From Candidatus Binatus sp. (GTDB taxonomy: Bacteria; Desulfobacterota; Binatia; Binatales; Binataceae): DNA of 64,000 nucleotides. The position numbers and the translations under genes were made by a program. The notes beneath the pieces are model-generated. The model was not told the DNA's origin and searched no databases. It worked only from the letters and a program-made list of their open reading frames with translations. This document shows positions 7,278-23,657 of this stretch, one piece after another. The stretch spans positions 12,455 through 76,454 of the forward strand of contig NZ_JBEKFG010000003.1 of the NCBI RefSeq assembly GCF_050013435.1, given 5' to 3'. The number at the start of each line of letters is the position of its first letter. Positions within the stretch are counted from its first letter, which is position 1.

Positions 7278-7562
7278 ATGCGCGTCGAAATCAGCGATGG
7301 CGTCATATGGCGGGATCTCGGCGGCGACGTAGTCATCCTGAACGTCGAAACCGGCATCTACTTCGGCCTCGACGGCTCGGGTGGCCAGATATGGCGCGAA
7401 CTCGTCGAACACGGTTCCATTGAGAAAACCTTCGCGTCGCTAAAGCAGCAGTTCGATGCCGAGCCCGACGAATTACGCCGCGACCTCGACGCTCTCGTGG
7501 ATCAACTTGTCGAAAAGAGACTCGTGCATCTGATCGCCGAACGCAAAGGTCGTTTGCGATGA
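7278..7562 (+). CDS. PqqD-family RiPP recognition element (lasso B1 protein)
   Basis: 94 aa MRVEISDGVIWRDLGGDVVILNVETGIYFGLDGSGGQIW...LRRDLDALVDQLVEKRLV: the 3-strand/3-helix PqqD pattern, directly upstream of the cyclase. Confidence 0.9.
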   Translation: MRVEISDGVIWRDLGGDVVILNVETGIYFGLDGSGGQIWRELVEHGSIEKTFASLKQQFDAEPDELRRDLDALVDQLVEKRLVHLIAERKGRLR

Positions 7563-7608: not shown

Positions 7609-9561
7609 ATGAGCGGCATCGCGGTCCTCTATCAATGGGACGGTGCTCCAGCAGACCGCTCGACCGTCGAGCGGATGATTGAGGTCATCCCGTACCGCTC
7701 GGTTGACGGCTTCGGCGTATGGGGCAACGGCCCGGTCGCAATTGGGCATGCAAAGCTCCAGACGACGCCCGAAGCTTCGGCCGAGACCAGCCCGTTCGTG
7801 GACGAAGCCAGCGGGCTCGTTCTATCGATGGACGGGCGGGTGGATAACCACGACGAACTCGCGGCGGAGTTGAACTCGCATGGTCATCGTGTTCGCACGG
7901 GCACTGACGCAGAGATCATGCTTCGCGCCTGGCAGCGCTGGGGTGCCGAGGCGCCTGCGAGAGTCATAGGCGATTTCGCGTTCGCCTTATGGGACCCATC
8001 GAAGCGGACGCTCTTCTGTGCCCGGGATCCTCTAGGAGTGAAGAGCTTCTACTACTTCAATGGCCCGGGGTTCTTTCTGTGCGCCTCGGAGCTTCATCAA
8101 CTGTTCCAGGATCCAAGGGTCGTACAAAGACCGAACGAGCCTGCTGTAGCCGAGATGCTGGTGAGGCTCCCGGTTGATCGCGAGGAGACACTCTTCGAAG
8201 GTATCCGCCGCCTCGAGCCCGCGCATTATCTGAGCGTGAGCGCGCGTGGCGTGGAACGCCGGCGCTATTACGATCTGGACGCCTCACGGGAGATCACCTA
8301 TCGGAGCGACGACGAATACTCCGATCATTTTCTCTCACTGTTCAAGGAGGTGATGCGATGCCACCTTCGCAGCAACAAGGGAGTCGCCTCGGACCTGAGT
8401 GGCGGGCTTGATTCCGGATCGATTGTCTGTGTGACCGAACAACTACGCCGCGACGGCGAAGTGCAACTCCCGAATTTTGAGACCTTCACGGTTCGCTTCG
8501 ACACCGGACCCGCGGCCGAGGCTGAGTACGTCGAAGAGGTCTTGCATAAGTATCCTCATCGCCATACCTACGTTCCTCCAGGCATGGCCCCGCTCGGCCA
8601 ACTCATTGCCCAGGTTGCGCACTACCTGGACCTTCCGGATTTTCCCAACTCTGTATGCGCCGATTACACGCCGCTGCTTGGCAATCGTAACGACCTGAGA
8701 GTTCGGCTGACCGGTCTGGGCGGCGACGAGTGGTTTGGCTCGACCTACGCTGCATACGCCGACCTGTTGAAGCAGTTTCGCATCGTCGCGCTGTTGCGCA
8801 CGCTGCGGATTGATCGAAACCAACCGGCCGGATTCGCGCCTTTTCCGGGCTATGCCAATGCTCTGGTGCGGTATGGAGTCTTGCCACTCGTGCCCTACCG
8901 CCTCAAAGCGGCGCTCAGGCCATGGCTGCGTCGCCCGCCCGAGCCTCCCGCGCTGGTCGTACCCGCGTTCGCGGCCAGGATGAAACTCATGGACCGGCTG
9001 TCTGCGAGGCAGCCGTGGCCCCGATGCCGCAGCTTCGCGCAGCAGCTCCTCTACCAGGGCTACTCGTCCGGATGGCTCTCGTACGCGCTCGAGATGGACG
9101 CGCGCTGGACCGCGGGCTTTCGACTGGAGGGACGCAGTCCCTTGCTGGACCGCCGGATACTCGAGTTTGCCTTCGCCATACCTGATAACCAGCGCTTCAG
9201 GCCCGGCGTTAGCAAGTTCGTGTTGCGCAATTCGATGCGCGGAATCCTGCCGGAGCGAATCCGGCGGCGGTCTTCCAAGGCTGACCTGACGGAGTTACAC
9301 CCGATGGCGCTAATCGCGCTTGGTGGAGAGCGGCTGTTCGATCGCCTCAACGTCGTCAAAAACGGATGGGTCGACGGAGTTGCTGTGCGCAGGCTCTACC
9401 GCTCGATGGCTGAGGCGTTTTCGCGCCGCGATCCCTCCTACATGGAGAATGTCCTGGAACTATGGAATATCTTTGCGGTCGAACTCTGGCTCAACGTGGT
9501 GTTTCTCGGTATCAGCGAGCCTTTCAAGCACATAACCGAAACCAGCGCAGCGGCTTTGTGA
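7609..9561 (+). CDS. Asparagine synthetase-like lasso peptide cyclase (C protein)
   Basis: AsnB-like; PP-loop LSGGLDS, GLGGDE, RSPLLDRR. N-terminus is MSGIA, lacking the glutaminase Cys. Clustered with RRE and precursor. Confidence 0.85.
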   Translation: MSGIAVLYQWDGAPADRSTVERMIEVIPYRSVDGFGVWGNGPVAIGHAKLQTTPEASAETSPFVDEASGLVLSMDGRVDNHDELAAELNSHGHRVRTGTDAEIMLRAWQRWGAEAPARVIGDFAFALWDPSKRTLFCARDPLGVKSFYYFNGPGFFLCASELHQLFQDPRVVQRPNEPAVAEMLVRLPVDREETLFEGIRRLEPAHYLSVSARGVERRRYYDLDASREITYRSDDEYSDHFLSLFKEVMRCHLRSNKGVASDLSGGLDSGSIVCVTEQLRRDGEVQLPNFETFTVRFDTGPAAEAEYVEEVLHKYPHRHTYVPPGMAPLGQLIAQVAHYLDLPDFPNSVCADYTPLLGNRNDLRVRLTGLGGDEWFGSTYAAYADLLKQFRIVALLRTLRIDRNQPAGFAPFPGYANALVRYGVLPLVPYRLKAALRPWLRRPPEPPALVVPAFAARMKLMDRLSARQPWPRCRSFAQQLLYQGYSSGWLSYALEMDARWTAGFRLEGRSPLLDRRILEFAFAIPDNQRFRPGVSKFVLRNSMRGILPERIRRRSSKADLTELHPMALIALGGERLFDRLNVVKNGWVDGVAVRRLYRSMAEAFSRRDPSYMENVLELWNIFAVELWLNVVFLGISEPFKHITETSAAAL

Positions 9562-9637
9562 CGATCGTCGCTGCGCTATTCGCGCTGTAAACGCTGTCGC
9601 AACGTAAGGCAGAGCGAACTGAAATGGAACGAGTAAA

Positions 9638-10777
9638 ATGTCTTTGATGCTGGATGAGCATCGCCTGTATCTTTCCGACCTGACCCGAACCTCATTGTTT
9701 CGACGGGCGATCAACGCGGTGGTCAAGCCGGGCGATGTCGTGCTCGACATCGGCTGTGGAACTGGGGTGCTTGGCCTGCTCGCGATGAAGGCCGGAGCCG
9801 CAAGGGTGTACCAGATTGACCAATCGCCCATGATCCAGGTCGCCCGCGACGTGGCATCTGCCAATGGTTACGGGCAAAGCACGATCGGGATTCACGAACG
9901 CTCCGGTCGTGCCAAGCTTCCCGAAAAGGCCGACGTCGTCGTTGCCGATCAGCTGAGCCACTTCGGAATTGGCGCCGGGATGCCCGAGGTATTCAACGAC
10001 GCCCGCCGGCGTCTCCTCAAGCCGGGCGCCCGCGCGATCCCTCGACGCATCGAACTCTTCGTCGTCCCGGTGAATTTCCCCGACATGTGGCGCATCGCCA
10101 GCTTCTGGGACAAACGCCATGCGGGGCTGAAGATGTCGTCGGCACGCAGTATTGCATTCAATACCGTTTACCCCAGCGAGAAGAGCCCGCGCCGGATGCT
10201 GGGCAAACCCGCGCGGATGTTCAGCTTTGACCTTACGGAGCTGACGCCGGAACGTTTCTCTGCCAAGGCCGCGATCGAGGTTTCAGCGGCCGGCGTTATG
10301 CACGGTCTCAGCGGATGGTTCGTTGCCGAACTGGCGCCGGGCGTGATCATGACCAATTCGCCCTTTCGCAAAAGCCGAATCCAACGGTCCGCCGCGTTCT
10401 TTCCGGTCGAGAAGCCTTTAGCGCTGAGCAAGGGGGATCGCCTGGATATCACGATGACTGCTATCAGCACGCAGAACCTCCTTAGCTGGAAGGTGGAGGT
10501 CTTCAATACCAAGGGTAGGGAAAAAGCACGGTATGTTCATTCCACGCTCAAGGGAATGTCACTCATGCCTGAAGAATTGGCGAAGACACGACCAGACTTT
10601 GTGCCACGGCTGTCGGATTGGGGTGCGGCGCGAAGATCAGTGATGAACCTGGCCGATGGAACACGTATACTGGCCGAAATAGAAAGGGAAATGCTCCGAC
10701 TTCACTCGGATCTTTTCCCATCAATAGCCCATGCGTCGGAGTACGTCACCAAGGTTCTCATGACTGACTTGACCTAG
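9638..10777 (+). CDS. Class I SAM methyltransferase, PRMT-like fold, with C-terminal RRE-like helical extension
   Basis: H..YLSD..RT..F..AI, VLDIGCGTGVL, LLKPG..IP, HGLSGWF..EL: PRMT-like architecture. Confidence 0.8.
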   Translation: MSLMLDEHRLYLSDLTRTSLFRRAINAVVKPGDVVLDIGCGTGVLGLLAMKAGAARVYQIDQSPMIQVARDVASANGYGQSTIGIHERSGRAKLPEKADVVVADQLSHFGIGAGMPEVFNDARRRLLKPGARAIPRRIELFVVPVNFPDMWRIASFWDKRHAGLKMSSARSIAFNTVYPSEKSPRRMLGKPARMFSFDLTELTPERFSAKAAIEVSAAGVMHGLSGWFVAELAPGVIMTNSPFRKSRIQRSAAFFPVEKPLALSKGDRLDITMTAISTQNLLSWKVEVFNTKGREKARYVHSTLKGMSLMPEELAKTRPDFVPRLSDWGAARRSVMNLADGTRILAEIEREMLRLHSDLFPSIAHASEYVTKVLMTDLT

Positions 10778-10870
10778 GTCGTCGTCTTGCATACGCTGAG
10801 TGCGCGTTTCGAATTAGGTAGCGCATCCGTATCTTGACCAGCTTCGGCGAATCAGGAAGGGCTACGTCGG

Positions 10871-10899
10871 TTGCAACAAGCGTAAGTATCTTATATAAA
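10871..10899 (+). promoter_or_regulatory. Putative sigma70 promoter for the lasso precursor
   Basis: TTGCAA (10871-76), 17-nt spacer, TATAAA (10894-99), about 55 nt upstream of the precursor ATG in an AT-rich gap. Confidence 0.55.
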
Positions 10900-10953
10900 G
10901 TAACCTGACGTTCTGATGCGAGGCGAGATGCAATTGGAGTTTAGGGGTTGGAG

Positions 10954-11124
10954 ATGACCAAAAAAATTAAGATAGACGGGCAGAAGCCTCGGACGCAGAG
11001 CGTCAAGAAACCTTATGCCCGTCCTCATCTCGTAGAGTACGGCAACGTGGCAAAGCTCACAGCTTCGGGTGGGACTGCTACTCCGGTTGACTCCATGTCA
11101 GGCATGACCGGACCCCCGATGTGA
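10954..11124 (+). CDS. Lasso peptide precursor (A), 56 aa; not in the ORF track
   Basis: Manual translation MTKKIKIDGQKPRTQSVKKPYARPHLVEYGNVAKLTA|SGGTATPVDSMSGMTGPPM*. Leader motif YxxPxLxxxGxxxxxT with Thr at -2; Asp at core position 9. Confidence 0.92.
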   Translation: MTKKIKIDGQKPRTQSVKKPYARPHLVEYGNVAKLTASGGTATPVDSMSGMTGPPM

Positions 11125-11192
11125 CCTCCGAACCTGCGAGCCAGCAGATCGTCTGATTTCCAATCGAGGTTCGTTATCCGGCTGATTGCGCG

Positions 11193-12299
11193 TTGTCAAT
11201 ATCACAGTCGGCTGCGGTGCCTGCGCAAGAGAGCCGGCACAATCGGGCGTTGAGGCAAATCGAACGGTCTCAACCGGAAATTTCCTGGGCGTCGCGAACC
11301 GTCACTGACCCAAGCAAAACACCGATCCCGGTCTTTCGACAGCACGCTTACGGGCTGCGAATCGTTACAGACATCCCGCTTCCGGAGCTTGCCGCAATTC
11401 GGGTGTCGTCGGTCAGGTCGGCGATTCGTGCGACTCTTGGCGGCCGCTTTCAGCGCATCCGCCTCAATCCCCGATGGTACCTGCGTTCGCGGCTTCCAGG
11501 CGGCGGGACTTGGCTGCGCTGCGGCAAGACCGAGGGTGGCTACGTACTCTCCTTTGCTAACATCGCCGACTTTATCATTGACAGCTCCGGAAGCCAGGTA
11601 GTCTGCTGCAACGCGAGCAGCGACGTTAGCCTCGAGACCATTCGTCATCTCCTGATTGACCAGGTGCTTGCGCTGATCGTAAACCTGCGCGGCCGGGAGG
11701 CCCTGCACGCTACTGCGGTCGCGACGCACAGCGGCGTTTGCGCATTCACGGGGCCCGCAGGGTCGGGCAAGTCAACGCTCGCCGCGAGCTTCGTCCTATC
11801 GGGATATCCGCTGGTCTGCGATGATTGCCTGGCGCTTTCCGAAGGTAAAACGATTACGGCGCTCCCCGGTTATCCGGGCCTGCGGCTGTGGGATGATTCG
11901 ATACGCGCGCTCGGCGCAAGTTCACGGAATCTGAAGCCGGTTGCGCACTATACGACGAAATCGCGCTGGCAAGACCACTCGCGACGCGCCGACTTCTGCT
12001 CGACGACACGCCGACTCGCGCGCATCTATCTGCTCGAGCGCGCGCGATCGAGCAAACGCGCAGCCCGCGTCCTGATCGAGGAGCTCGCTCCCGGCGAGGC
12101 GCTGATGGGGCTGGTCAAGGCGGCCTACAGGCTCGACATCACCGACCAAGCGATGCTGACGCGTCAGTTCCAGTTCCTGTCCCGCGTCGCCGAGCGCGTC
12201 CCGGTCAAACGCCTGATCGTGCCCAACGAATTTTCCGCACTCTCCGATGTAAGACAGGCGGTGCTGCGCGACTTGAGCAATCGCCGGCCGCCCCGCTGA
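11193..12299 (+). CDS. HPr kinase-related P-loop kinase (putative lasso peptide kinase)
   Basis: LHATAV, Walker A GPAGSGKST, LVCDD, PGYPGLRLW. Start codon (TTG) uncertain. Confidence 0.8.
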   Translation: MSISQSAAVPAQESRHNRALRQIERSQPEISWASRTVTDPSKTPIPVFRQHAYGLRIVTDIPLPELAAIRVSSVRSAIRATLGGRFQRIRLNPRWYLRSRLPGGGTWLRCGKTEGGYVLSFANIADFIIDSSGSQVVCCNASSDVSLETIRHLLIDQVLALIVNLRGREALHATAVATHSGVCAFTGPAGSGKSTLAASFVLSGYPLVCDDCLALSEGKTITALPGYPGLRLWDDSIRALGASSRNLKPVAHYTTKSRWQDHSRRADFCSTTRRLARIYLLERARSSKRAARVLIEELAPGEALMGLVKAAYRLDITDQAMLTRQFQFLSRVAERVPVKRLIVPNEFSALSDVRQAVLRDLSNRRPPR

Positions 12300-12329
12300 G
12301 CGCTATACCGGGGCGATAGATTTCTCAGC

Positions 12330-12365
12330 AAAAAAAAGCTCCGCGGGTCGCAGGACCCGCGGAGC
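12330..12365 (-). terminator. Rho-independent terminator
   Basis: 12-bp stem GCTCCGCGGGTC-GCAG-GACCCGCGGAGC next to an A8 tract (U tail on the minus strand), between convergent genes. Confidence 0.8.
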
Positions 12366-12408
12366 CATCAAACGATCATGACTCAAGCCTGAAATTTTCC
12401 AGCGCCGA

Positions 12409-13395
12409 TCAGAACGTGACCAGCGGAATGCAGGCGGGACTCGACACGCCGTCGGCGTTGGCCGTGCCCCAGTCATTGCCGACCCACTGATTGTCGCCGC
12501 ACGTGCTGCTCGCGTCGTGGAGATCGTAGCCGCTTGTTACACCATTGCCCGATGCCTTGATGAGGTAGACCACATCATCAGTGGTCTTTTCACTTGCATC
12601 CAGGAAAATTCCGTCACCCTGGTTACCGGTGACCGCGGGTGTAGTAGTCGTCCCTATGGGCGCATCGCCCACCCGAACATCGGAATTGGAGCCGCAACCA
12701 GACGTGCAGCCTACGTGAACACCAGCGCCGCCGTTATCCGTCGCTGTGAATACGTTGATCCTCGCGCCGCTCGAGTGTGTTATAAGCACGCCGTCGGCGC
12801 CATTGCTTGAAGCGTCGAAGTCAGTAGCTATGCACTCATCGGTGCATTGATTGAAGTAAACACCCTGCTTGGTGTTGCTGTCCGCGGCAAAATTGGACCA
12901 CGTCGACGTCGCTCCGCCCGACGTGCCGTTCAGCTCCAGCCCGATTTGGTTGTCCTCCAGGGTGACGTTATCGCCAATGCTATTGTTCGACTGATCCAGG
13001 ATGCCATATTTAAACCCGGAGATTGTGCTATTAAAGCCTTCGATCACGTCATTATCGGCTGCGCTTGTGATATTGATTCCCGCTCCAGTCGAGGTCGCCC
13101 CAGGGCCCGTGATGCTGTAACCGAAGAGATCCAGGGTGCTGTTGCTGCCAGTCATATTGATACAGGTGCCGGTGCCAGACTCCGTGAGGTCGTTCGCCAG
13201 CTGATAGATAGTGTCGCTCCCGCTCAGCGTCCCACACGCGGTGACGGAGGTGGGATCTACAGCGTTCGCAGACGCATGATGCTTCTTCGCCCAAGCGGCC
13301 TGTGGGCCAGTCAGGACCAGCGCTACCGTCAAAGCAAGAAAAGATACGCCAGGAGCGCCTATTCTCCGAAAAAACCCTCTTTTGATCGCCTTCAT
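12409..13395 (-). CDS. Secreted right-handed beta-helix (pectin lyase-like) repeat protein
   Basis: Signal peptide ending AWA; repeats such as SNTKQGV, SNGADGV, DNGGAGV, GNQGDGI; several Cys; AAGGAG RBS before ATG 13395. Confidence 0.7.
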   Translation of the reverse strand: MKAIKRGFFRRIGAPGVSFLALTVALVLTGPQAAWAKKHHASANAVDPTSVTACGTLSGSDTIYQLANDLTESGTGTCINMTGSNSTLDLFGYSITGPGATSTGAGINITSAADNDVIEGFNSTISGFKYGILDQSNNSIGDNVTLEDNQIGLELNGTSGGATSTWSNFAADSNTKQGVYFNQCTDECIATDFDASSNGADGVLITHSSGARINVFTATDNGGAGVHVGCTSGCGSNSDVRVGDAPIGTTTTPAVTGNQGDGIFLDASEKTTDDVVYLIKASGNGVTSGYDLHDASSTCGDNQWVGNDWGTANADGVSSPACIPLVTF

Positions 13396-13757
13396 ATCGT
13401 TTATGCTCCTTCGCTTTTCTTTCGTCTTCCCTAACGACACATCATTCGTAGTGGCGTCTTCGCAACCCTTGCTCTTGGAGGTTTATTCAGAACCTGCCGA
13501 AGTAGACTTGGCAATGGTTTACGACCGACGGCGCATCATTCCATTTCGCCTGTCTTCAGTCAAGTGGTTCTATGACGCCCGTTGACGGCTTTGTTGTTCG
13601 ATTTTAGTCGTTAGATGTCGTAGATTAGGCTCAGCGACGAAAATCTCTACAAGTTGTTATTCTATCGCCCACAAAACGAAAGCGGCTGTCACCGATAGAT
13701 ACACTTGTAAGCCGTACTTGGTTCCAGCTCGCGCCTGGGGCTGTTATTGATAATTCC

Positions 13758-14969
13758 GTGGAATTCGACTCCCTCCTCGACCTTGCCGACTTGCCCATCG
13801 AAGCGGCGCTCGTGCTGTGCTGCGCGACAACCGCGGCCACGCCCGTGCGCACGGAGCTCGCGTCCGACCTTGCGCCGCGCGTACGCAGTTGGGACCGCGT
13901 CGTCGATATCGCCAAACGTCATGCGGTGCTCCCGCTGGTACATCGCTATCTGAAGCTCGAATGTCCGACCGCGGTTCCGGGTGAAGGGCTTGCGAAGCTG
14001 CGGACGCAGTGGCAGATGATCATTCTCTACAACCGTCATCTGACCGCCGAACTTGTGCGCCTGATGGGCCTGCTGAAAGCGGCCGGAGTTCCGGCGGTCA
14101 CCTTCAAGGGCCCGGTGCTTGCCGCGATGGCATACGGATCGATCGAACTTCGCCAGTTCAGCGATCTGGATATTCTCGTGCGTCAGACTGACCTGCCGCG
14201 GGTCGCCGAAATACTCACCGCCGAACGATATTTGTCGCCGCATACCAGGCGCGAAGGCCTCGCCACCGGCTACTTTCAGGAGTACGAGGACGCCTTCGCC
14301 GGACCCGACGGGCTGGGCGCCGTGGACGTTCATTGGGACCTCACGCCGCGCTCGTTCCGTTTCGCCCCCGACGAGGAAGGCCTGTGGCGGCGCGCGCACG
14401 AGGTCGATCTGGAGCTCGGCAAAGTGATGGCGATCGCGCCCGACGACCTGTTGCTGTACATCTGCGTGCACGCCGCGAAGCATGGATGGGTCACGCTCGG
14501 ATCGATCTGCGATGTCGCCGAGACCGTTCGGGCCCGTCCGGAAATCGATCTGATGGGGATACTTGACGAGGCAGCCGCGCTCGGGAGCCGCCGAATGTTC
14601 CTGACCGGCATCTGGCTGGCGCACGAGCTGGCCGGCGCGCCGATTCCCGCCGATCTTGTCCGGCTGGCTCGCGGCGACCGCGCCGCCCGGGCATTGGCAG
14701 GACGCGTCGCGGGGCAACTGTTCAGCGGAGCCACGCAGGGACGGGCAGACTTCGATCCGTGGGCGGTTCCGATCCGCTCGATCGAGGGCGCACGCGCGCG
14801 AATCCGCTACATCGTCCGCCGAATGCTGGCGCCGACGATGGGCGACTACGAACTCATCCCGCTGCCGGCAGCGCTCTTTCCGCTCTACTGGGTGATTCGG
14901 CCGTTTCGGATGGCGGTGCAATACGGGCCGCGGCTGGTCCGCGGCTCTTCGAAGAGCTCGAACACGTGA
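13758..14969 (+). CDS. Nucleotidyltransferase family protein (NTP_transf_5-like, lasso-cluster associated)
   Basis: FKGPVLA..AYG..LRQFSDLDILV, VDVHW, LLYICVHAAKH motifs. Confidence 0.85.
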   Translation: MEFDSLLDLADLPIEAALVLCCATTAATPVRTELASDLAPRVRSWDRVVDIAKRHAVLPLVHRYLKLECPTAVPGEGLAKLRTQWQMIILYNRHLTAELVRLMGLLKAAGVPAVTFKGPVLAAMAYGSIELRQFSDLDILVRQTDLPRVAEILTAERYLSPHTRREGLATGYFQEYEDAFAGPDGLGAVDVHWDLTPRSFRFAPDEEGLWRRAHEVDLELGKVMAIAPDDLLLYICVHAAKHGWVTLGSICDVAETVRARPEIDLMGILDEAAALGSRRMFLTGIWLAHELAGAPIPADLVRLARGDRAARALAGRVAGQLFSGATQGRADFDPWAVPIRSIEGARARIRYIVRRMLAPTMGDYELIPLPAALFPLYWVIRPFRMAVQYGPRLVRGSSKSSNT

Positions 14970-15536: not shown

Positions 15537-16760
15537 ATGCGCCTACATGAGTACTCGGCGAATGGATCGTCGGTCGCGACTGCGAGGCAGAATCTTGGCG
15601 CCCAGCCGTTGGACGCAACGTCCGAGTGGTTGAGCCTGGCGGAACTTGCGCACGGGTCGGAACGGATCGGCGGGGCGGTGGTGCGGTCGGCGCACGCGCG
15701 CAAAATACTCAAAACCATTTCACGCTTGAGTCCGTACAAGTCGACCGTGCTGATTCACGGCGAATCCGGAACCGGCAAGGAACTGGTCGCGCGCGCGCTG
15801 CATACGATGGGCTCGGCGCCAAACGGCCCGTTCGTGACCTTCAATTGCTCCAACCTGGTCGATTCGCTGGCAGAGTCGCAGCTTTTCGGTCATGTGCGCG
15901 GCGCATTCACCGATGCCCGCGAGGATTCGCTCGGCTATTTCCGCTCCGCCAGTGGCGGAACTCTATTTCTGGACGAAGTCGGCGAGCTTCCGCTGCACCT
16001 GCAGCCCAAGCTGCTGCGCGCGCTCGATACCCACGAGATTCAGCCGGTCGGTTCGTCACGCACCTACTCGGTTGATATCCGGCTGGTCGCGGCAAGCAAT
16101 CGCAACCTGCACGCGATGGTCAAGGCGGGGCAATTCCGCGACGACCTCTACTACCGGCTTAACGCGGCGGCAATCCTGGTTCCGCCGCTTCGCGACCGGC
16201 GCGAGGCAATCCCGGCCTTCATCGCTCATTTTATCGAGCACTTCAACCGCCTGTTCGGCAAAGATATAAAGCTCGTATCGCGGACCGCCGTGGACGCGCT
16301 GTGCGCCAACCAGTGGCCCGGCAACGTCCGCGAGCTTGGCCATGCAATCGAGAGCGCGGTTCTGATGACCGAAACTGATCGTATCGATCTCCACGACCTG
16401 CCTTTGCGCCACGACGATGCGAATCCGCAAGTGCTGGTCGAGCCGGTCGGGAAGGTGCTGCAAAACGGCGGGCTCAATCTCGAAGGCGGGCACAATAGCG
16501 CCGGGATTGACTGCGAGAAGGCGTCGCAGCGGTGCTTCGAAATGGCGACCTGGCCTTACTCGCTCGACGCGGTAATCCGCGAGGCCTCGAAACTCGCGCT
16601 GGTTCGCGCGCTGCAAGCGACCCAGGGCAATTGCCATCGTGCGGCCGAGCTGCTGGGCGTATCGCGCTACACGGTTTACCGAATGCTGAACCGGTTTGGC
16701 CTGGGCGAAGGCCATACCTACCGGACGCTGCGCAAGTCGACGGTACGCCGCGCGTCCTGA
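15537..16760 (+). CDS. Sigma54-dependent transcriptional activator (AAA+ plus Fis HTH), no obvious sensory domain
   Basis: GESGTGKE, ESQLFGHVRGAFTDA, LFLDEVGE, WPGNVREL; C-terminal AAELLGVSRYTVYR. Confidence 0.9.
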   Translation: MRLHEYSANGSSVATARQNLGAQPLDATSEWLSLAELAHGSERIGGAVVRSAHARKILKTISRLSPYKSTVLIHGESGTGKELVARALHTMGSAPNGPFVTFNCSNLVDSLAESQLFGHVRGAFTDAREDSLGYFRSASGGTLFLDEVGELPLHLQPKLLRALDTHEIQPVGSSRTYSVDIRLVAASNRNLHAMVKAGQFRDDLYYRLNAAAILVPPLRDRREAIPAFIAHFIEHFNRLFGKDIKLVSRTAVDALCANQWPGNVRELGHAIESAVLMTETDRIDLHDLPLRHDDANPQVLVEPVGKVLQNGGLNLEGGHNSAGIDCEKASQRCFEMATWPYSLDAVIREASKLALVRALQATQGNCHRAAELLGVSRYTVYRMLNRFGLGEGHTYRTLRKSTVRRAS

Positions 16761-17162: not shown

Positions 17163-17645
17163 ATGGAACGGTACGAGAAGGCCTTCCTCGCGGCGTGCGC
17201 GGTAATACTGGTGATTTTTCTGGGCGCGCTTGCCTACGGCAGCGTCGCGATGGGCGTGCATCTTCCTTCCCGTGGCGGGCTGATCTATTGCGGGGTCGGC
17301 GAGAAGCTTCGCAAGGTGCTGAGCAAAACGCCGCCTTTCGATCACCCCGGAGTGCAGGAAATCGCGCCGGGGAAATACCGGGCGGTGGTGATCGCGAAGA
17401 CTTGGACCTTCGCTCCCAATGAGATCGACCTTCCGGTGGGCGCCGAGGTGAGGTTCGTCGCAACCTCGGTTGACGTAATTCACGGATTTTTCATCGTCGG
17501 CACGCGGGTCAACGTGATGCTGGTTCCCGGGGAGATTTCTCAATTCGACTATCGCTTTACCAAGCCCGGCGAATACCTGCTGATATGCCAGGAATACTGC
17601 GGCGAGCTGCATCAGACGATGGCCGGGAAGGTGGTGGTCAAATGA
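17163..17645 (+). CDS. cbaB: ba3-type cytochrome c oxidase subunit II
   Basis: One TM; CuA motif DVIHGF...CQEYCGELHQTM. Confidence 0.92.
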   Translation: MERYEKAFLAACAVILVIFLGALAYGSVAMGVHLPSRGGLIYCGVGEKLRKVLSKTPPFDHPGVQEIAPGKYRAVVIAKTWTFAPNEIDLPVGAEVRFVATSVDVIHGFFIVGTRVNVMLVPGEISQFDYRFTKPGEYLLICQEYCGELHQTMAGKVVVK

Positions 17646-19303
17646 GTACGGCGGTCGTCTCGGAGCCGTCGGGCTTCGCCCTGCCGCAGGGCCAGTTGAA
17701 CGTTATCAAATGGAACATCTATTTCGGGTTCGCGGTGCTTGCGGTCGGCGTCATCATGGGACTGGCTCAGGCGCTCAGTTACGCGCGAATAAACGTCGTC
17801 CAATACTATCCGGTAGTGAAATCCTACTACCAGGCGCTGACGATTCATGGGGTGTTCAACGCGCTGGTGCTGACCACGGCGTTCGCCAACGGCTTTATCG
17901 CGCTGACCACGGCGCGAGGTCTCGGCCGCAAGCTCAATAATGCGCTGCTGCATGCGGCGTTGTGGACGCTTTTTATCGGCTCGATCCTGGCGGCGTATGC
18001 GATGTTCGCCGACAAGGCCTCGGTCCTGTACACCTTCTACCCGCCGCTGGAAGCCCACTGGACGTTCTACCTGGGCCTCGCGTTGGTGGTGGTCAGCACG
18101 TGGATAACCTCGGCGGCCCAACTCGCGGCGCTGCGCGGATGGCGCAAGGATCATCGGGGCGAGCGAGTGCCGCTGCTCGCCTTCATGTCGATCGCAACCT
18201 ACGTGATGTGGGATATCGCATCGGTCGGGCTGGCCGTAGAGGTCGTGGTGTTCCTGCTGCCATGGTCGCTGGGATTGCTTCCGGGCGTCGATCCGATGCT
18301 CGATCGCACGCTGTTCTGGTTCACGGGGCATCCGATCGTGTACTTCTGGCTGCTGCCGGTTTACGTTTCATGGTACGGACTGATTCCCAAACAGGCCGGC
18401 GGCGTGCTGTTCAGCGACACCGTGACGCGGGTGGCCTTCATACTTTTCATCCTGCTGATCCCGGTCGGCTTTCATCATCAGTTCATGGACCCGGGAGTAT
18501 CGCAGGGACTGAAGTTCACCATCGCGGCCATGACCTTCGCGATTTTCTTCCCCAGCCTGATAACGGCGTTCTCGGTAATGTATGCGCTCGAGATCGGGGG
18601 ACGCCGCCGGGGCGGGAACGGGCTGGTCGGATGGTTTTTCAAGATTCCATGGAGCGATCCGTCGGTGGCGGCGCAGGTGCTGGCGATGATCGCATTCCTG
18701 ATCGGCGGCATCTCCGGGCTGATGAACGCGAGCTACACCATGGACATGGAGATTCACAACACGGCGTTCATATCGGGCCATTTTCATCAAACCGTCGGCT
18801 GTGCGGTGGCTCTCTCCTACATGGGAATTGCCTACTGGCTGATACCGTATTTCGAGCGGCGCGAGCTATGGTTGCCGCGCCTGGCACTGTTCCAGGCATT
18901 TTTGTATTTCATCGCAGTGATGATTTTCTCCAACGGCCTGGAAGCGGGCGGCATGGAGGGATTGCCGCGGCGCACCGACATGGTGCATGCAACCTACGGG
19001 CTGGCGGCGTGGAAGATTCCGGGAATCATGACCGCGTTGGGCGGAACGCTGATGTTCGCGAGCGCGATGCTGTTCTTTCTCATCGTGGTGATGACGATAG
19101 TCGCCGGCAAAAGGACCGCGCAGCGCGACCTTCCGTTCACCGCGACGGTCCAGGCGCCACCCACCGTCGGATGGCAGCCGCGGCTCGATCGGCTCAGCTA
19201 CTGGGTCCTGATTTCGGTCGTGCTGGTAATCGCGGTCTATGGCCCATTTTTTCTCGAACACTTCCCGCCCAGCCTCTCGATCCAGGGCCTGATCTATCCT
19301 TAG
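17642..19303 (+). CDS. cbaA: ba3 (B-family) heme-copper oxidase subunit I
   Basis: TIHGV, WFTGHPIVYFW, GFHHQF, GHFH ligand motifs; LYTFYPPL. Confidence 0.92.
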   Translation: MSTAVVSEPSGFALPQGQLNVIKWNIYFGFAVLAVGVIMGLAQALSYARINVVQYYPVVKSYYQALTIHGVFNALVLTTAFANGFIALTTARGLGRKLNNALLHAALWTLFIGSILAAYAMFADKASVLYTFYPPLEAHWTFYLGLALVVVSTWITSAAQLAALRGWRKDHRGERVPLLAFMSIATYVMWDIASVGLAVEVVVFLLPWSLGLLPGVDPMLDRTLFWFTGHPIVYFWLLPVYVSWYGLIPKQAGGVLFSDTVTRVAFILFILLIPVGFHHQFMDPGVSQGLKFTIAAMTFAIFFPSLITAFSVMYALEIGGRRRGGNGLVGWFFKIPWSDPSVAAQVLAMIAFLIGGISGLMNASYTMDMEIHNTAFISGHFHQTVGCAVALSYMGIAYWLIPYFERRELWLPRLALFQAFLYFIAVMIFSNGLEAGGMEGLPRRTDMVHATYGLAAWKIPGIMTALGGTLMFASAMLFFLIVVMTIVAGKRTAQRDLPFTATVQAPPTVGWQPRLDRLSYWVLISVVLVIAVYGPFFLEHFPPSLSIQGLIYP

Positions 19304-19422: not shown

Positions 19423-20397
19423 GTGCCTCGCGTTTCTGTAATCATTCCCGCGTACAACGCGGCCGCGACTATCGCCGGCACCCTGGACAGCGTAATCGGG
19501 CAGACCTTCCAGGATTTTGAAATCATTTGCGTTGACGACGGCTCGACCGATCGAACCCGCGCAATCGTTGAACAGTACGCCCGAGACTGCGGCGACCGAG
19601 TGAAGCTTGTCGAGCAGGCCAACAGCGGACCGGCGGCGGGGCGCAACAACGGCGCGCGGCATTCGACGGGCGAGTATCTCGCTTTCCTCGATGCCGACGA
19701 CGTCTGGACGGCGCCGATGCTCGAGCGGACGGTGGCGGTTCTGGACGCCGACCCCCTGCTCTCGCTGGTGTATTGCAACGCGGCGCTCGCCGACAGCGAA
19801 GGCGTGGCGCTGGATACGTCGCTGGTCGGCAAAGGCTTCGACCATCCGCCGTCGATCCATGAACTGCTGACGCGGCTGTGGCCGATAATGCCCAGCGCGG
19901 CGCTGGTGCGGCGCTCCGGTTACGAAAAATGCGGCGGCTATCGCGACGAATTGCGCGGCGCGAGCTTCCGCTTCGAGGACGTAGATTTCTGGATCAAGAT
20001 GCGCGAGCAGGGGCCGTTCGGCTATATCGCCGAGCCGCTGGTGATATGGCGGTTCGCGTGGTTTCCGAAGCAGCTCAAGCGGTTGCCTGACTATTCGAAA
20101 GCATTGCACGTCTTCGAGGCGTATCTGCAGGAGCGTTACGGAGTCTCCGCGGCGCCGCTGGTGAATGCGCGGACGCGGGCTCCGCGAAGTATCCTGGCGA
20201 CGATAGGATTGAAGGCGCTTCGCGACGGCGATCGCCGGCGCGCGCGGGCGGCGTTCGCGCGCGCGATCAGGGTGGATCCCTACCGGTTCAAGAACTACCT
20301 GCGCTGGATGAGGACGTTTCTGCCCGATCGGCTGGCGCAGAATCTTTCGGGTAAAAGTTCGCGGCGTGCTCGATCTGGCGGCGCGTATCAGGAATAA
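19423..20397 (+). CDS. GT2 family glycosyltransferase
   Basis: VSVIIPAYN, VDDGSTD, AFLDADD. Confidence 0.9.
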   Translation: MPRVSVIIPAYNAAATIAGTLDSVIGQTFQDFEIICVDDGSTDRTRAIVEQYARDCGDRVKLVEQANSGPAAGRNNGARHSTGEYLAFLDADDVWTAPMLERTVAVLDADPLLSLVYCNAALADSEGVALDTSLVGKGFDHPPSIHELLTRLWPIMPSAALVRRSGYEKCGGYRDELRGASFRFEDVDFWIKMREQGPFGYIAEPLVIWRFAWFPKQLKRLPDYSKALHVFEAYLQERYGVSAAPLVNARTRAPRSILATIGLKALRDGDRRRARAAFARAIRVDPYRFKNYLRWMRTFLPDRLAQNLSGKSSRRARSGGAYQE

Positions 20398-21690
<1,293 letters not shown>

Positions 21691-21775
21691 GGAAGCTGCG
21701 CTCGATGCGCAAGTAACTTTTCAGGTGGCGCGGATCGCGCGATAGCGGCTAGCTTCGAAGATCGAACCGCAGAAG

Positions 21776-22717
21776 CTATCGACGGTCACGCGAACGGTCG
21801 AGTGCGCGAATAATGCTCATCGGGAGTAGCGTTCGCGCGATCCGCAAATATGTCTTGAACGCCGTGCGATCATAAGAGAGCGAGCGAATCAGGCATTTGC
21901 GCGCGGCGGCTCGATTGCCCTTCCTGAGCTCAGCAAGGCCGGTATTTCTGAGGATACGGACTTTGTGTTGGGTGTAACTCTGAAGAACTCCAGAGGCGCG
22001 ATCTCCATATCGAGATCGAATCGACCGCACGAAGAGCTCGCCGCGGCTGTCTCGCCTGAGCACCTTGGGATATAGCGGGCCCATCGTGAACCGCGTGAGC
22101 TTTTCGGGCAAATAGCTGAACTCGCCTTGTTCGCGAATACGAATCCAGAAGTCCAGGTCCTCGCTGAATCCTTCGGCAAAACGGCCGCACTTTTCATAGG
22201 CCGCCCGACGCATCACGACCGTACTCGGCATGATCGGCCACAAACGGCTGAGCATCTCGTCGAGGGTGGGAGAATGCGCTGTTTGCGCATCGACGGGCGA
22301 AGTACCCAGCTCGCGGCCGGCGGTGTCGCAATTGGAAACATCCGTATAGACGAGTGCGACTTGCCGAGACTGGTCGAGAATCGCGATCGACTTTTCGAGT
22401 TTGGTTGGCAGCCAGAAATCATCTGCGTCCAACAACGCGAGATACTCGGCTTTCGACTTTGCGATTCCGGCGTTGCGGGCGGCGCAAAATCCCTGGTTGG
22501 GCTGCCGAATGACCACGATCCTGGAGCCGAACCGTTCAAGTATGGAAGCGGTTGCGTCGGTCGAGCCGTCATCGACGACGACGACTTCGTAGTCGGTGAA
22601 GGTTTGATCGAAAATGCTCTGGAGCACGTCGCTAATCGTGGCGGCCCCGTTATAAACCGGGATTATTGCCGAGACGCGCGGCGTGCGTCCGCCGGATGTT
22701 GACGCGGCAGATGTCAT
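21776..22717 (-). CDS. GT2 family glycosyltransferase
   Basis: VSAIIPVYN, VDDGSTD, LLDADD; start uncertain. Confidence 0.88.
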   Translation of the reverse strand: MTSAASTSGGRTPRVSAIIPVYNGAATISDVLQSIFDQTFTDYEVVVVDDGSTDATASILERFGSRIVVIRQPNQGFCAARNAGIAKSKAEYLALLDADDFWLPTKLEKSIAILDQSRQVALVYTDVSNCDTAGRELGTSPVDAQTAHSPTLDEMLSRLWPIMPSTVVMRRAAYEKCGRFAEGFSEDLDFWIRIREQGEFSYLPEKLTRFTMGPLYPKVLRRDSRGELFVRSIRSRYGDRASGVLQSYTQHKVRILRNTGLAELRKGNRAAARKCLIRSLSYDRTAFKTYLRIARTLLPMSIIRALDRSRDRR

Positions 22718-22727
22718 CCGCGCCGGC

Positions 22728-23648
22728 TCAGGCCTCGCCATCGCCCGTGCGCGAGGCCGCCAGCGGCGAGCGAGCCGGAAGAAAAGTCTTCAAGTATCGA
22801 CGGTAGGCCTTCGGTGACGCGGGTTGATAGTGGATGACGCGGGCGAGACAACGGCGCGCATCCTTGGGGCGTCCCTCCTCCATCAGAGTGCGGGCCATAT
22901 GTCTCATGACCTTCATTCGCATGCGCCGGAATTCGCGGATGAGACCGGTGGCCGAGGCGCCATAGCGCACGCGGACCAGCCGAACGAACAGTTCGCACTC
23001 CCGCTCGCGTTCCAGCGCCTTGGGATAGAGCGGGCGCGTGGTCTTGCGCATCAGCAATTCGGGGACGGATCGGAAATGTCCGTGTTCGCGGCCATTGAGC
23101 AGGAAATAGAGATCCTCGCATGACGTTACGAAGCGCTCGTCAAATCCACCGCATCGGTCGAAGACCTCGCGGCGCACCATGAACTGACTCGGCACGACAT
23201 TCCACGGGCGCTCGAGCATCTGCGCGAGCGTCGGAGAATCGACGCCTTGGGTCTGGCTGTCCTGATTGGGCATCGGCCGCCCGTTTAGATCGACCCTGAG
23301 CGCGCCCGTGTACACCAGCACGCAATTCGGATCTTGATCAAGGACGGCTGCGGATCGCGCGAGCTTTTCGGGCATCCACTCGTCGTCAGCGTCGAGGAAC
23401 GCGACATACTCGCCGCCCGATGCGCGTACGCCTGCGTTGCGCGCCCCGGCAAGACCGCGATTGGGCTGGCTGACAACTCGAATTCGATCGCCGTAACCGG
23501 CCAGCACCGACGCGGTATCGTCGGTCGAGCCATCGTCGAGGACCACGACTTCGTAGTCGGAGCACGACTGGGCGAATACGCTCGCCAGTGCGCGGCGGAT
23601 CGTGGCTGCGCCATTATATACCGGAATTACTACCGACACCTTTGCCAT
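22728..23648 (-). CDS. GT2 family glycosyltransferase
   Basis: VSVVIPVYN, LDDGSTD, FLDADD. Confidence 0.9.
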   Translation of the reverse strand: MAKVSVVIPVYNGAATIRRALASVFAQSCSDYEVVVLDDGSTDDTASVLAGYGDRIRVVSQPNRGLAGARNAGVRASGGEYVAFLDADDEWMPEKLARSAAVLDQDPNCVLVYTGALRVDLNGRPMPNQDSQTQGVDSPTLAQMLERPWNVVPSQFMVRREVFDRCGGFDERFVTSCEDLYFLLNGREHGHFRSVPELLMRKTTRPLYPKALERERECELFVRLVRVRYGASATGLIREFRRMRMKVMRHMARTLMEEGRPKDARRCLARVIHYQPASPKAYRRYLKTFLPARSPLAASRTGDGEA

Positions 23649-23657
23649 TGCGGGTCG

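What the first reader, a model, noticed from the sequence alone, without database searches (positions are those of the whole stretch)
10954..11124. Hidden 56-aa lasso precursor with an aromatic-free, Met/Ser/Thr/Pro-rich core
Seen: not in the ORF track; leader KKPYARPHLVEYGNVAKLTA matches YxxPxLxxxGxxxxxT, and it has its own candidate promoter TTGCAA-N17-TATAAA. Predicted core SGGTATPVDSMSGMTGPPM gives a Ser1-Asp9 ring and a 10-residue tail. The core has no aromatic or basic residue, so the usual bulky plug residues are missing from a large ring. Inference: Met/Pro residues or the tailoring modifications may act as the steric lock.
Basis: partly seen in the sequence, partly recalled or inferred. 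Interest (0 to 1): 0.85.

Follow-up and report, generated by a model that had tools for sequence, protein, structure and literature searches.

The report
Conserved Met-rich lasso peptide precursor gene
This is a real, conserved small gene for the precursor of a knotted "lasso" peptide in an uncultured peat bacterium, and it belongs to a large unstudied family whose threaded tails are rich in methionine rather than the usual bulky aromatic or basic residues.

Summary
The 56-aa ORF at 10954-11124(+) is real. It carries the lasso leader motif YxxPxLxxxGxxxxxT, found once in six frames of the window (0.02 expected). It lies between a PqqD RRE, a lasso cyclase, a PRMT-like methyltransferase, an HprK-like kinase and an NTP_transf_5 protein. 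Twenty-two protein homologues and 14 syntenic Binataceae MAG loci conserve the leader, Ser1 and the acceptor Asp.

The genome's only leader peptidase (B2) lies on another contig, with a second RRE and an ABC exporter. The pathway is therefore split over two loci.

The aromatic- and basic-free core is correct as read, but it is not unusual in this family. In 152 related cores, Met makes up 18.3% of tail residues against 1.2% of ring residues, and 32 cores lack F/W/Y/K/R/H. A large residue occupies acceptor+5 in 73% of tails. Here that residue is Met14.

A lock by kinase tailoring, as proposed for pseudomycoidin, is disfavoured. The C-terminal Ser acceptor is absent, and two relatives with both enzymes have no hydroxyl residue in the tail.

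Verdict: a genuine lasso precursor and an uncharacterised variant of a known kind. Topology, modifications and expression remain untested.

The parts
10871..10899 (+). Promoter-like element TTGCAA-N17-TATAAA upstream of the precursor gene. It overlaps the 13-nt imperfect palindrome 10863-10884.
   Evidence: Occurs once in the window, 0.01 expected. Found at the same position in 5 of 14 related loci. Palindrome. Not called by the generic sigma-70 scan. Function is inferred.
10943..10947 (+). Shine-Dalgarno-like AGGGG, 6 nt before the ATG.
   Evidence: Read. Purine-rich GGAG/GGGA runs sit at the same place in the aligned upstream regions.
10954..11064 (+). Leader peptide, residues 1-37 (MTKK...KLTA), with YxxPxLxxxGxxxxxT and Thr at -2.
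   Evidence: In a 22-codon block of 15 sequences, all 22 third-position columns vary against 14 first- and 9 second-position columns. Pairwise codon differences are 961 synonymous and 547 non-synonymous. NF033521 scores 17.2 bits (cut-off 19) and NF033528 20.1 bits (cut-off 33).
11065..11124 (+). Core peptide, residues 38-56 (SGGTATPVDSMSGMTGPPM), plus the TGA stop. Predicted Ser1-Asp9 macrolactam, 10-residue tail, Met14 at the family's large-residue slot.
   Evidence: Ring, threading and lock are inferred.
7278..7562 (+). B1: PqqD-family RiPP recognition element, 94 aa.
   Evidence: PF05402 E 8e-16. NF033536 scores 47 bits, below its cut-off of 80. Orthologues start at MRVEISD.
7609..9561 (+). 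C: asparagine-synthase-like lasso macrolactam cyclase, 650 aa. It is the only one in the genome.
   Evidence: PF00733 and GATase_7. NF033535 scores 417 bits, below its cut-off of 525. Sole hit in the genome.
9638..10777 (+). PRMT-like SAM methyltransferase, 379 aa. Substrate unknown.
   Evidence: PrmA and PRMT_C. PRMT2 and PRMT6 structures at E about 1e-21 over residues 8-269. Present in 10 of 14 related loci.
11193..12299 (+). K: HprK-related P-loop kinase, 368 aa from a TTG. The start is uncertain, since the Atlas record begins at residue 9.
   Evidence: TIGR04352 E 2e-9, 36.7 bits, below its cut-off. Weak HPr kinase PDB hits. H172, K193, D210 and D211 are invariant in 12 orthologues. Atlas clusters carry Hpr_kinase_C in 14-22% of members.
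12409..13440 (-). Secreted right-handed beta-helix protein, conserved beside K in all 14 related loci. Role unknown.
   Evidence: Synteny. No Pfam family at E<=0.01 and only a chance-level DUF3976 row at E 0.09. AlphaFold model pLDDT 77.7. Foldseek best matches are AlgE4, AlgG and capsule lyases, E 7e-5, TM about 0.5. Atlas suggests NosD/Beta_helix clusters.
13758..14969 (+). N: NTP_transf_5 nucleotidyltransferase-family protein, 403 aa.
   Evidence: PF14907, 198 bits. A homologue lies in 9 of 14 related loci: downstream of the precursor in 7 (L005, L006, L008, L011, L014, L015, L018), and only as an upstream paralogue of about 39% identity in L007 and L016.
15537..16760 (+). Sigma-54-dependent transcriptional activator. 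Syntenic in close relatives. Any link to the cluster is unproven.
   Evidence: PF00158 and HTH_8. Found in L005, L006, L008, L011 and L014.

Best explanation
The ORF encodes the precursor (A) of a disulfide-free (class II type) lasso peptide of an uncultured Binataceae bacterium from peat. The 37-residue leader carries YxxPxLxxxGxxxxxT with Thr at -2 and is bound by a PqqD-type RRE. It is cut after Ala37 by the genome's only B2 cysteine peptidase, which is encoded on another contig together with a second RRE and an ABC exporter. The adjacent asparagine-synthase-like cyclase then joins the alpha-amine of Ser1 to the side chain of Asp9. This gives a 9-residue ring around a 10-residue tail. The tail is most likely held by the large-residue slot at acceptor+5/+6, here Met14 and Thr15, the same ring and plug geometry as capistruin. 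The neighbouring kinase, NTP_transf_5 protein and PRMT-like methyltransferase probably decorate the peptide, but not on a C-terminal Ser. Shown here: the gene, its conservation, its context and the family statistics. Inferred: the cleavage site, the ring, the threading, the lock and all modifications.
For: - The motif is unique in the window.
- There are sub-threshold hits to the two NCBIfam lasso precursor models, and 142 and 140 of 150 family members match them at E<=0.01.
- The neighbours are PqqD, cyclase, kinase and NTP_transf_5.
- In 22 homologues the leader, S38, G39 and D46 are invariant while the core varies.
- Substitution is of the coding type.
- The B1-C-(MT)-A order holds in 13 of 14 MAG loci. 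The fourteenth, L012, is a 4-kb contig that begins just before A. K follows A in 12 of 14 and the beta-helix gene is present in all 14.
- The profile finds the precursor in 37 of 81 genomes of the family and 18 of 30 genera. The tally includes the unpublished G059.
- The genome is 94% complete and holds one precursor, one cyclase and one B2.
- The distant B1'-B2-D module has no precursor-like ORF beside it.
- Homologues of that module sit inside the precursor cluster in relatives: B1'-B2 in L013, B2 in L015, and D in L007 and L016.
- The large-residue slot peaks at acceptor+5 (73%) and +6 (50%).
- Capistruin has 19 residues, an Asp9 ring and its upper plug at residue 14 (table in PMC12214591).
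Against: - There is no direct evidence of transcription, translation or product.
- The only RNA-library contig lies in the kinase gene, not over the precursor.
- Both NCBIfam precursor models and the lasso cyclase model score below their curated cut-offs.
- B2 is not in the cluster.
- Met is smaller than the Arg, Phe or Tyr locks usual for 9-residue rings (my own knowledge). My library searches found no paper reporting Met as a lock.
- The family was gathered with a profile that includes core columns, so part of the Met signal could be ascertainment.
- Contexts are known only for the 14 loci, not for the 131 further representatives.
Confidence: 0.75

Rival explanations
1. The lasso is locked by tailoring, not by a side chain. 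The kinase and the NTP_transf_5 enzyme attach phosphate and sugar to the tail, and this bulky group prevents unthreading, as speculated for pseudomycoidin.
For: - K and N are conserved next to the precursor.
- K keeps an invariant His, P-loop Lys and Asp-Asp, matching the His-Lys-Asp-Asp motif described for lasso kinases in the review PMC9266682 (passages).
- The pseudomycoidin paper shows the unmodified product is a branched cycle and proposes the phospho-hexose as a lock (PMC6993621, abstract and sections 8 and 10).
- This tail has S10, S12 and T15.
Against: - Characterised kinases act on a C-terminal Ser. This peptide ends in Met, and only 2 of 152 family cores end in Ser.
- 36 of 149 tails have no Ser or Thr.
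- L008 and L014 have K and N adjacent but no S/T/Y in the tail.
- The only hydroxyls conserved in the close family are in the ring: Ser1 and Ser/Thr4.
Confidence: 0.15
2. The mature product is not a stable threaded lasso. It is a branched-cyclic or readily unthreading peptide, because the tail has no residue large enough for a 9-residue ring.
For: - The core has no F/W/Y/K/R/H.
- Pseudomycoidin purified without its modifications behaves as a branched cycle.
- The tail is Gly-, Ser- and Pro-rich.
Against: - The position-specific conservation of a large residue at acceptor+5/+6 across 149 tails is hard to explain unless the ring sits there.
- The substitution pattern in that column (M, K, R, F, Y) is what a steric role predicts.
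Confidence: 0.1
3. The ORF is a chance open frame and not a gene.
For: - It is short and below a 60-aa ORF cut.
- No Pfam family was found.
- No RNA cover was seen.
Against: - The motif is unique against shuffles.
- There are 22 homologues and 14 syntenic loci.
- Synonymous variation is in excess over invariant residues.
- The upstream promoter-like motif is conserved.
Confidence: 0.01

Closest known systems
Capistruin (Burkholderia thailandensis, class II lasso peptide)
   Same: A 19-residue core, a residue-1 to Asp9 nine-membered ring and a 10-residue tail. The ring plane sits at residue 14/15 (sequence and upper plug 14 from the table in PMC12214591). That corresponds to acceptor+5/+6, the large-residue slot of this family.
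   Different: From my own knowledge, capistruin is locked by Arg15 and Phe16. This core has Met14 and Thr15 and no aromatic or basic residue. The first residue is Ser, not Gly. The capistruin cluster has a fused B protein and no kinase, nucleotidyltransferase or methyltransferase (recalled, not tested here).
Paeninodin / ThcoA / SyanA kinase-tailored lasso peptides
   Same: An HprK-related kinase is encoded beside the precursor, with split B1 and B2 genes (review passages). An invariant His, Lys and Asp-Asp are present in the kinase.
   Different: The defining phospho-acceptor, a C-terminal Ser, is absent here and in 150 of 152 family cores. The kinase matches TIGR04352 only weakly, at 36.7 bits against a cut-off of 200.
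Pseudomycoidin (Bacillus pseudomycoides)
   Same: The cluster holds a kinase plus a nucleotidyltransferase-family gene. The tail is poor in bulky residues, and a non-canonical lock has been proposed (PMC6993621). The leader peptidase is dispensable or not local.
   Different: Pseudomycoidin is phosphoglycosylated on its C-terminal Ser, and this peptide has none. The organism here is from Binatota, not Firmicutes. A PRMT-like methyltransferase and a secreted beta-helix protein are extra conserved neighbours here.
NCBIfam NF033521 (lasso_leader_L3) and NF033528 (lasso_cyano) precursor models
   Same: The leader type is the same: 142 and 140 of 150 family members match at E<=0.01.
   Different: The window's own peptide scores below both curated cut-offs, 17.2 against 19 and 20.1 against 33. 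Automatic annotation would therefore not name it.

Membership tests
Lasso peptide precursor (class II) | Leader with YxxPxLxxxGxxxxxT and Thr at the penultimate leader position | tested here: met
   Y21...T36 with Ala37 at -1. Unique in the window. P24, G30 and T36 are invariant, and Y21, L26 and Y29 are at least 90% conserved, in 150 family members.
Lasso peptide precursor (class II) | Asp or Glu acceptor at core position 7-9 | tested here: met
   Asp9. D46 is invariant in 23 of 23. In 152 cores the acceptor is D8 in 75, E8 in 17, D9 in 55 and D7 in 2, with none in 3.
Lasso peptide precursor (class II) | No Cys in the core (class II, no disulfide) | tested here: met
   Read. Note that 60 of 152 relatives end in Cys-Leu.
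Lasso peptide precursor (class II) | Curated precursor HMM above its cut-off | tested here: not met
   NF033528 scores 20.1 against 33 and NF033521 scores 17.2 against 19.
Lasso peptide biosynthetic cluster | PqqD-type RRE (B1) beside the precursor | tested here: met
   PF05402 E 8e-16.
Lasso peptide biosynthetic cluster | Asparagine-synthase-like macrolactam cyclase (C) | tested here: inconclusive
   PF00733 and GATase are present. NF033535 scores 417 bits but its cut-off is 525.
Lasso peptide biosynthetic cluster | Transglutaminase-like leader peptidase (B2) in the cluster | tested here: not met
   There is none in the window. The only PF13471 hit in the genome is on contig C19, with a second PqqD gene and an ABC transporter. 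B2 lies inside the cluster in relatives L011, L013, L014, L015 and L018.
Lasso peptide biosynthetic cluster | RRE binds the leader | tested here: inconclusive
   The complex-prediction job gave no verdict. Listed under Tried and rejected only.
Lasso peptide (mature product) | Threaded [1]rotaxane topology with a steric lock | not testable with these tools
   Only positional statistics are available.
Kinase-tailored lasso peptides (paeninodin/pseudomycoidin type) | HprK-related kinase with a His-Lys-Asp-Asp motif | tested here: inconclusive
   H172, K193, D210 and D211 are invariant in 12 orthologues. No alignment to a characterised kinase was made. TIGR04352 scores below its cut-off.
Kinase-tailored lasso peptides (paeninodin/pseudomycoidin type) | C-terminal Ser as phospho-acceptor | tested here: not met
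   The C-terminus is Met. Only 2 of 152 cores end in Ser.
Kinase-tailored lasso peptides (paeninodin/pseudomycoidin type) | Nucleotidyltransferase-family gene (PsmN-like) | tested here: met
   PF14907, 198 bits. That PsmN belongs to this Pfam family is recalled, not tested.

The most novel reading that the evidence does not exclude
The Met-rich tails define a large, wholly uncharacterised clade of lasso peptides. The tails often carry M-x(0-2)-M and, in 60 of 152 cores, a C-terminal Cys-Leu. In this reading the thioether side chains do double duty. They act as the steric lock of an 8- or 9-membered ring, and they form a soft-metal (for example Cu(I)) ligand set displayed on a rigid scaffold. 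The peptides would be tailored by a kinase that cannot use a C-terminal Ser and by a PRMT-type methyltransferase acting on something other than a core arginine.
Probability: 0.1. Interest if true: 0.8.

Novelty: new variant of a known kind. Interest (0 to 1): 0.45.

Why it matters
Only about 50 lasso peptides have solved structures (PMC12214591), and their locks are mostly bulky residues.

This family could show how small a lock a 9-residue ring tolerates, which matters for lasso engineering. It has several hundred 50%-identity representatives: 697 hits at E<=0.001, a figure that includes some unrelated repeat proteins. Methionine fills the plug slot.

The gene set also poses two open enzymology questions:
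- What does a lasso-type kinase with NTP_transf_5 modify when there is no C-terminal Ser?
- What does a bacterial PRMT homologue methylate when the core has no Arg?

Finally, the cluster is an example of a lasso pathway whose peptidase and exporter are encoded elsewhere in the genome. Cluster-based genome mining would miss this or call it incomplete.

Tried and rejected
**Expression.** The look-up of sequencing runs gave 19 DNA runs from peat or wetland samples that hold the stretch almost whole; all but one may be the source. One metatranscriptome run (X20) held 9% of the words. Laid on 9600-12400, X20 gave a single 262-nt contig at 11874-12135, inside the kinase gene, and nothing over the precursor. 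Contigs cannot show absence, and DNA can be present in an RNA library. This is evidence neither for nor against expression of the precursor.

**RRE-leader binding.** Complex prediction used the B1 alignment A2 and the precursor alignment A1. It gave no verdict: 0.46 against 0.37 for a control with chain 1 replaced. This is not used as evidence either way.

**Attenuator or terminator after the precursor.** The inverted repeat in 11118-11195 folds no better than shuffles (z 0.52; 135 of 200 shuffles fold at least as well). The terminator scan found only a site at 10695-10710, inside the methyltransferase gene. Rejected.

**Sigma-54 promoter.** Reading the upstream sequence by eye, I found no GG-N10-GC spacing that fits. 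No tool test was run.

**Second precursor.** The single-protein search gave a weak hit on contig C54 (E 0.6, one TAG inside). It disappeared with the profile. Rejected as chance.

**Relatives with broken frames.** L006 reads through to more than 100 aa, and L017 stops after KLTS. Their neighbouring genes are also split into pieces, so I took these as assembly frameshifts and left both out of the core tables. P0083 and P0148 are tandem double precursors and were dropped from the counts. 18 of the 150 listed profile hits are proteins of 474 to 2,988 aa with 6-12 repeated short matches; they were left out as non-precursors.

**Tools and papers not available.** PMC4919450, the paeninodin paper, is not held, so what I say of it comes from the two reviews. 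Supplements are closed. Fig. S2 and Table S5 of PMC12214591 may list whether Met is ever a plug residue in solved lassos, and I could not see them.

**Literature searches that found nothing relevant.** The searches were 'lasso peptide' with 'Binat' (0 papers), with 'methionine-rich', with 'arginine methyltransferase' (1 unrelated paper), with 'plug residue' and 'methionine', with 'copper' and 'Met-rich' (no paper holding 'lasso peptide' together with 'Met-rich' was listed) and with 'NosD' (2 unrelated papers).

**Caveat on the family statistics.** The profile included core columns, so the Met enrichment may be partly ascertainment.

Full report
**Observation.** The frame 10954-11124(+) opens with ATG, closes with TGA and gives 56 residues. 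An AGGGG run lies 6 nt before the ATG. Residues 21-36 fit the lasso leader motif YxxPxLxxxGxxxxxT. This motif occurs once in the six-frame translation of the window, against a mean of 0.02 in 200 residue shuffles. With Thr at -2, the core is SGGTATPVDSMSGMTGPPM, with Asp at position 9, a 10-residue tail, and no aromatic, basic or Cys residue. The stated promoter-like TTGCAA-N17-TATAAA is at 10871-10899. The pattern is unique in the window (0.01 expected). The generic sigma-70 scan does not list it. All parts of the observation are confirmed.

**Context.** The neighbouring genes, upstream to downstream, are as follows.
- A PqqD-family RRE at 7278-7562.
- An asparagine-synthase-like cyclase at 7609-9561. 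NF033535 scores 417 bits, below its cut-off of 525.
- A PRMT-like methyltransferase at 9638-10777. PRMT2 and PRMT6 structures match at E about 1e-21.
- An HprK-related kinase at 11193-12299.
- A secreted protein on the opposite strand at 12409-13440.
- An NTP_transf_5 protein at 13758-14969.
- A sigma-54 activator at 15537-16760.

The precursor itself scores just under the cut-offs of the two NCBIfam lasso precursor models.

No B2 leader peptidase is in the window. The whole genome (94% complete, 150 contigs) has a single PF13471 match. It lies on contig C19, inside a PqqD-B2-ABC transporter row, and no precursor-like ORF sits beside it. The genome also has one precursor and one lasso cyclase. 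The simplest reading is one pathway split over two loci.

**Conservation.**
- A word-indexed search gave 22 homologues of 50-69 aa. In the alignment the leader block KKPYxxPxLVEYGxVAKLTA, Ser38, Gly39 and Asp46 are invariant, while the rest of the core varies. This is the usual RiPP pattern.
- A genome scan gave 14 loci, all in MAGs labelled Binataceae, 'delta proteobacterium', 'Deltaproteobacteria', 'uncultured proteobacterium' or, in one case, Acidobacteriaceae.
- tblastn with the window's proteins shows B1-C-(MT)-A in 13 of the 14. L012 is a 4-kb contig that starts just before A. K follows A in 12 of 14. The beta-helix gene is present in all 14.
- In relatives, homologues of the C19 genes lie inside the cluster. 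B1'-B2 sit directly upstream of B1 in L013, B2 beside N in L015, and the ABC transporter upstream of B1 in L007 and L016. This supports assigning the C19 module to this pathway.
- In a gap-free 22-codon leader block of 15 sequences, all 22 third positions vary, against 14 first and 9 second positions. Pairwise codon differences are 961 synonymous and 547 non-synonymous.
- The promoter-like motif is at the same place in 5 of 14 loci. In the alignment, three more distant loci (L014-L016) show a TTGAC(A/G)-spacer-TA(T/G)(C/G)TT element instead; I read this by eye.
- The profile finds the precursor in 37 of 81 genomes of the family and 18 of 30 genera. The unpublished G059 is included in those counts.

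**The wider family.** A profile search of 1.84 billion representatives gave 697 hits at E<=0.001. Of the 150 listed, 18 are long repeat proteins and were left out. Together with the close set this gives 154 short proteins, and all of them carry the relaxed leader regex. 142 of 150 match NF033521 and 140 match NF033528 at E<=0.01, so the leader type is one NCBI already models.

In 152 cores (two tandem precursors dropped), one search gives these counts.

| Feature | Count |
|---|---|
| First residue | S 67, G 40, T 20 |
| Acceptor | D8 75, E8 17, D9 55, D7 2, none 3 |
| Cores lacking F/W/Y | 102 |
| Cores lacking K/R/H | 48 |
| Cores lacking both sets | 32 |
| Met share of tail residues | 18.3% |
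| Met share of ring residues | 1.2% |
| Tails with at least one Met | 121 of 149 |
| Tails with at least two Met | 93 of 149 |
| Cores ending in Cys-Leu | 60 |
| Cores ending in Ser | 2 |

By position relative to the acceptor, a large residue (M/K/R/F/Y/W/H) occurs in 73% of tails at +5 (Met in 47%) and in 50% at +6, against 10-31% at +1 to +4. 138 of 149 tails have one at +4 to +6. In the 23 close homologues the +5 column holds M 13, K 3, R 2, Q 2, Y 1, G 1 and T 1. In this peptide +5 is Met14.

One caveat applies. The profile contained core columns, so some of the Met signal may come from how the set was gathered.

**Mechanism.**
- Shown: the gene, its neighbours, their conservation and the positional statistics.
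- Inferred from established lasso biosynthesis as described in the reviews read: an RRE binds the leader, B2 cuts after Ala37, and the cyclase links Ser1 N-alpha to the Asp9 side chain.
- The plug slot at acceptor+5/+6 matches capistruin, which has the same 19-residue length and an Asp9 ring and whose upper plug is residue 14 (table in PMC12214591).
- The M/K/R/F/Y interchange in that column fits a steric role better than a ligand role.
- I therefore favour Met14 as the lock. I rate that sub-claim at about 0.4 and the precursor claim at about 0.9.

**Tailoring.** The kinase keeps an invariant His, P-loop Lys and Asp-Asp in 12 orthologues. This is in line with the His-Lys-Asp-Asp motif reported for lasso kinases. 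Known lasso kinases and PsmN act on a C-terminal Ser, and that residue is missing here. 36 of 149 tails have no Ser or Thr. L008 and L014 have K and N adjacent and no S/T/Y in the tail. The conserved hydroxyls of the close family are Ser1 and Ser/Thr4, both in the ring. So if K and N act on the core, the ring is the more likely site, and a tail lock by tailoring is disfavoured.

The PRMT-like enzyme has no Arg to act on in this core, nor in the cores of L013, L015 and L016, which also have the enzyme. Its substrate is unknown.

**Comparison and novelty.** This is a lasso precursor by every sequence criterion except the curated HMM cut-offs and a local B2. It is not a member of the paeninodin/pseudomycoidin type in the strict sense, because the defining C-terminal Ser is absent. 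My literature searches found no paper on lasso peptides in Binatota, on Met-rich lasso tails, on Met as a plug or on PRMT-like enzymes in lasso clusters. The library does not hold most subscription journals, and supplements were closed. I rate it a new variant of a known kind, of moderate interest.

**Not obtained.** There is no evidence of expression, no verdict on RRE binding and no test of topology.

Noticed in passing
window 12409-13440 (-): A secreted protein with no Pfam family at E<=0.01 is conserved on the opposite strand beside the kinase in all 14 related loci, with three tandem copies in L015. The model has pLDDT 77.7 and is a right-handed beta-helix. Its closest matches are alginate epimerases (AlgE4, AlgG) and capsule lyases, at E 7e-5 and TM about 0.5. 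Atlas look-alikes are NosD/Beta_helix clusters. Five Cys are invariant and two more nearly so, and motifs such as HDASSTCG recur in most orthologues. Its role in or beside the lasso pathway is unknown.
   Followed up: partly
G000 contig C19, L004 6437-9000 (-): The genome's only B2 peptidase sits in a PqqD-B2-ABC transporter row, away from the precursor and cyclase. The two upstream ORFs of 228 and 261 aa have no Pfam family.
   Followed up: partly
window 9638-10777 (+): A full-length bacterial PRMT homologue, with both the Rossmann domain and the PRMT_C barrel, is conserved in 10 of 14 lasso loci, although several of their cores have no arginine. The three loci without it (L011, L014, L018) have B2 between B1 and C instead.
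   Followed up: partly
Family cores (P0035 to P0172; L010, L012, L013, L015, L016): 60 of 152 related cores end in Cys-Leu, usually after a run of Met. I know of no lasso modification tied to such an ending.
   Followed up: no
window 19423-26435: This stretch holds three family-2 glycosyltransferases, an NAD-dependent epimerase/dehydratase and three sulfotransferases. The first GT2 is syntenic in L005, L006, L008, L011 and L014. Whether this is lasso tailoring or a separate sulfated-glycan locus is open. Sulfotransferase genes have been noted in some lasso clusters (review).
   Followed up: no
window 17163-19303 (+): Cytochrome c oxidase subunits II and I lie between the sigma-54 activator and the GT2 genes. 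In L006 and L008 there is no room for them at the corresponding place, because the activator and the GT2 gene are about 200 nt apart.
   Followed up: no
L007 1528-1710 (+): A second, divergent precursor (core beginning GTTGSHTD) has its own cyclase, kinase, N and ABC transporter, directly upstream of the main cluster in one MAG. P0081 and P0164 look like the same subtype.
   Followed up: no
P0025, P0027, P0028 and 15 other long proteins: Proteins of 474-2988 aa match profile positions of about 29-44 (GNVAKLTASGG-like) 6-12 times each. This is probably an unrelated repeat family, and I did not look at it.
   Followed up: no
window 10863-10884 (+): A 13-nt imperfect palindrome is centred on the TTGCAA hexamer. 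The aligned relatives keep a CGCTnCTTGCAAGnAGCG-like symmetry there (read by eye). It may be an operator overlapping the -35 element.
   Followed up: no
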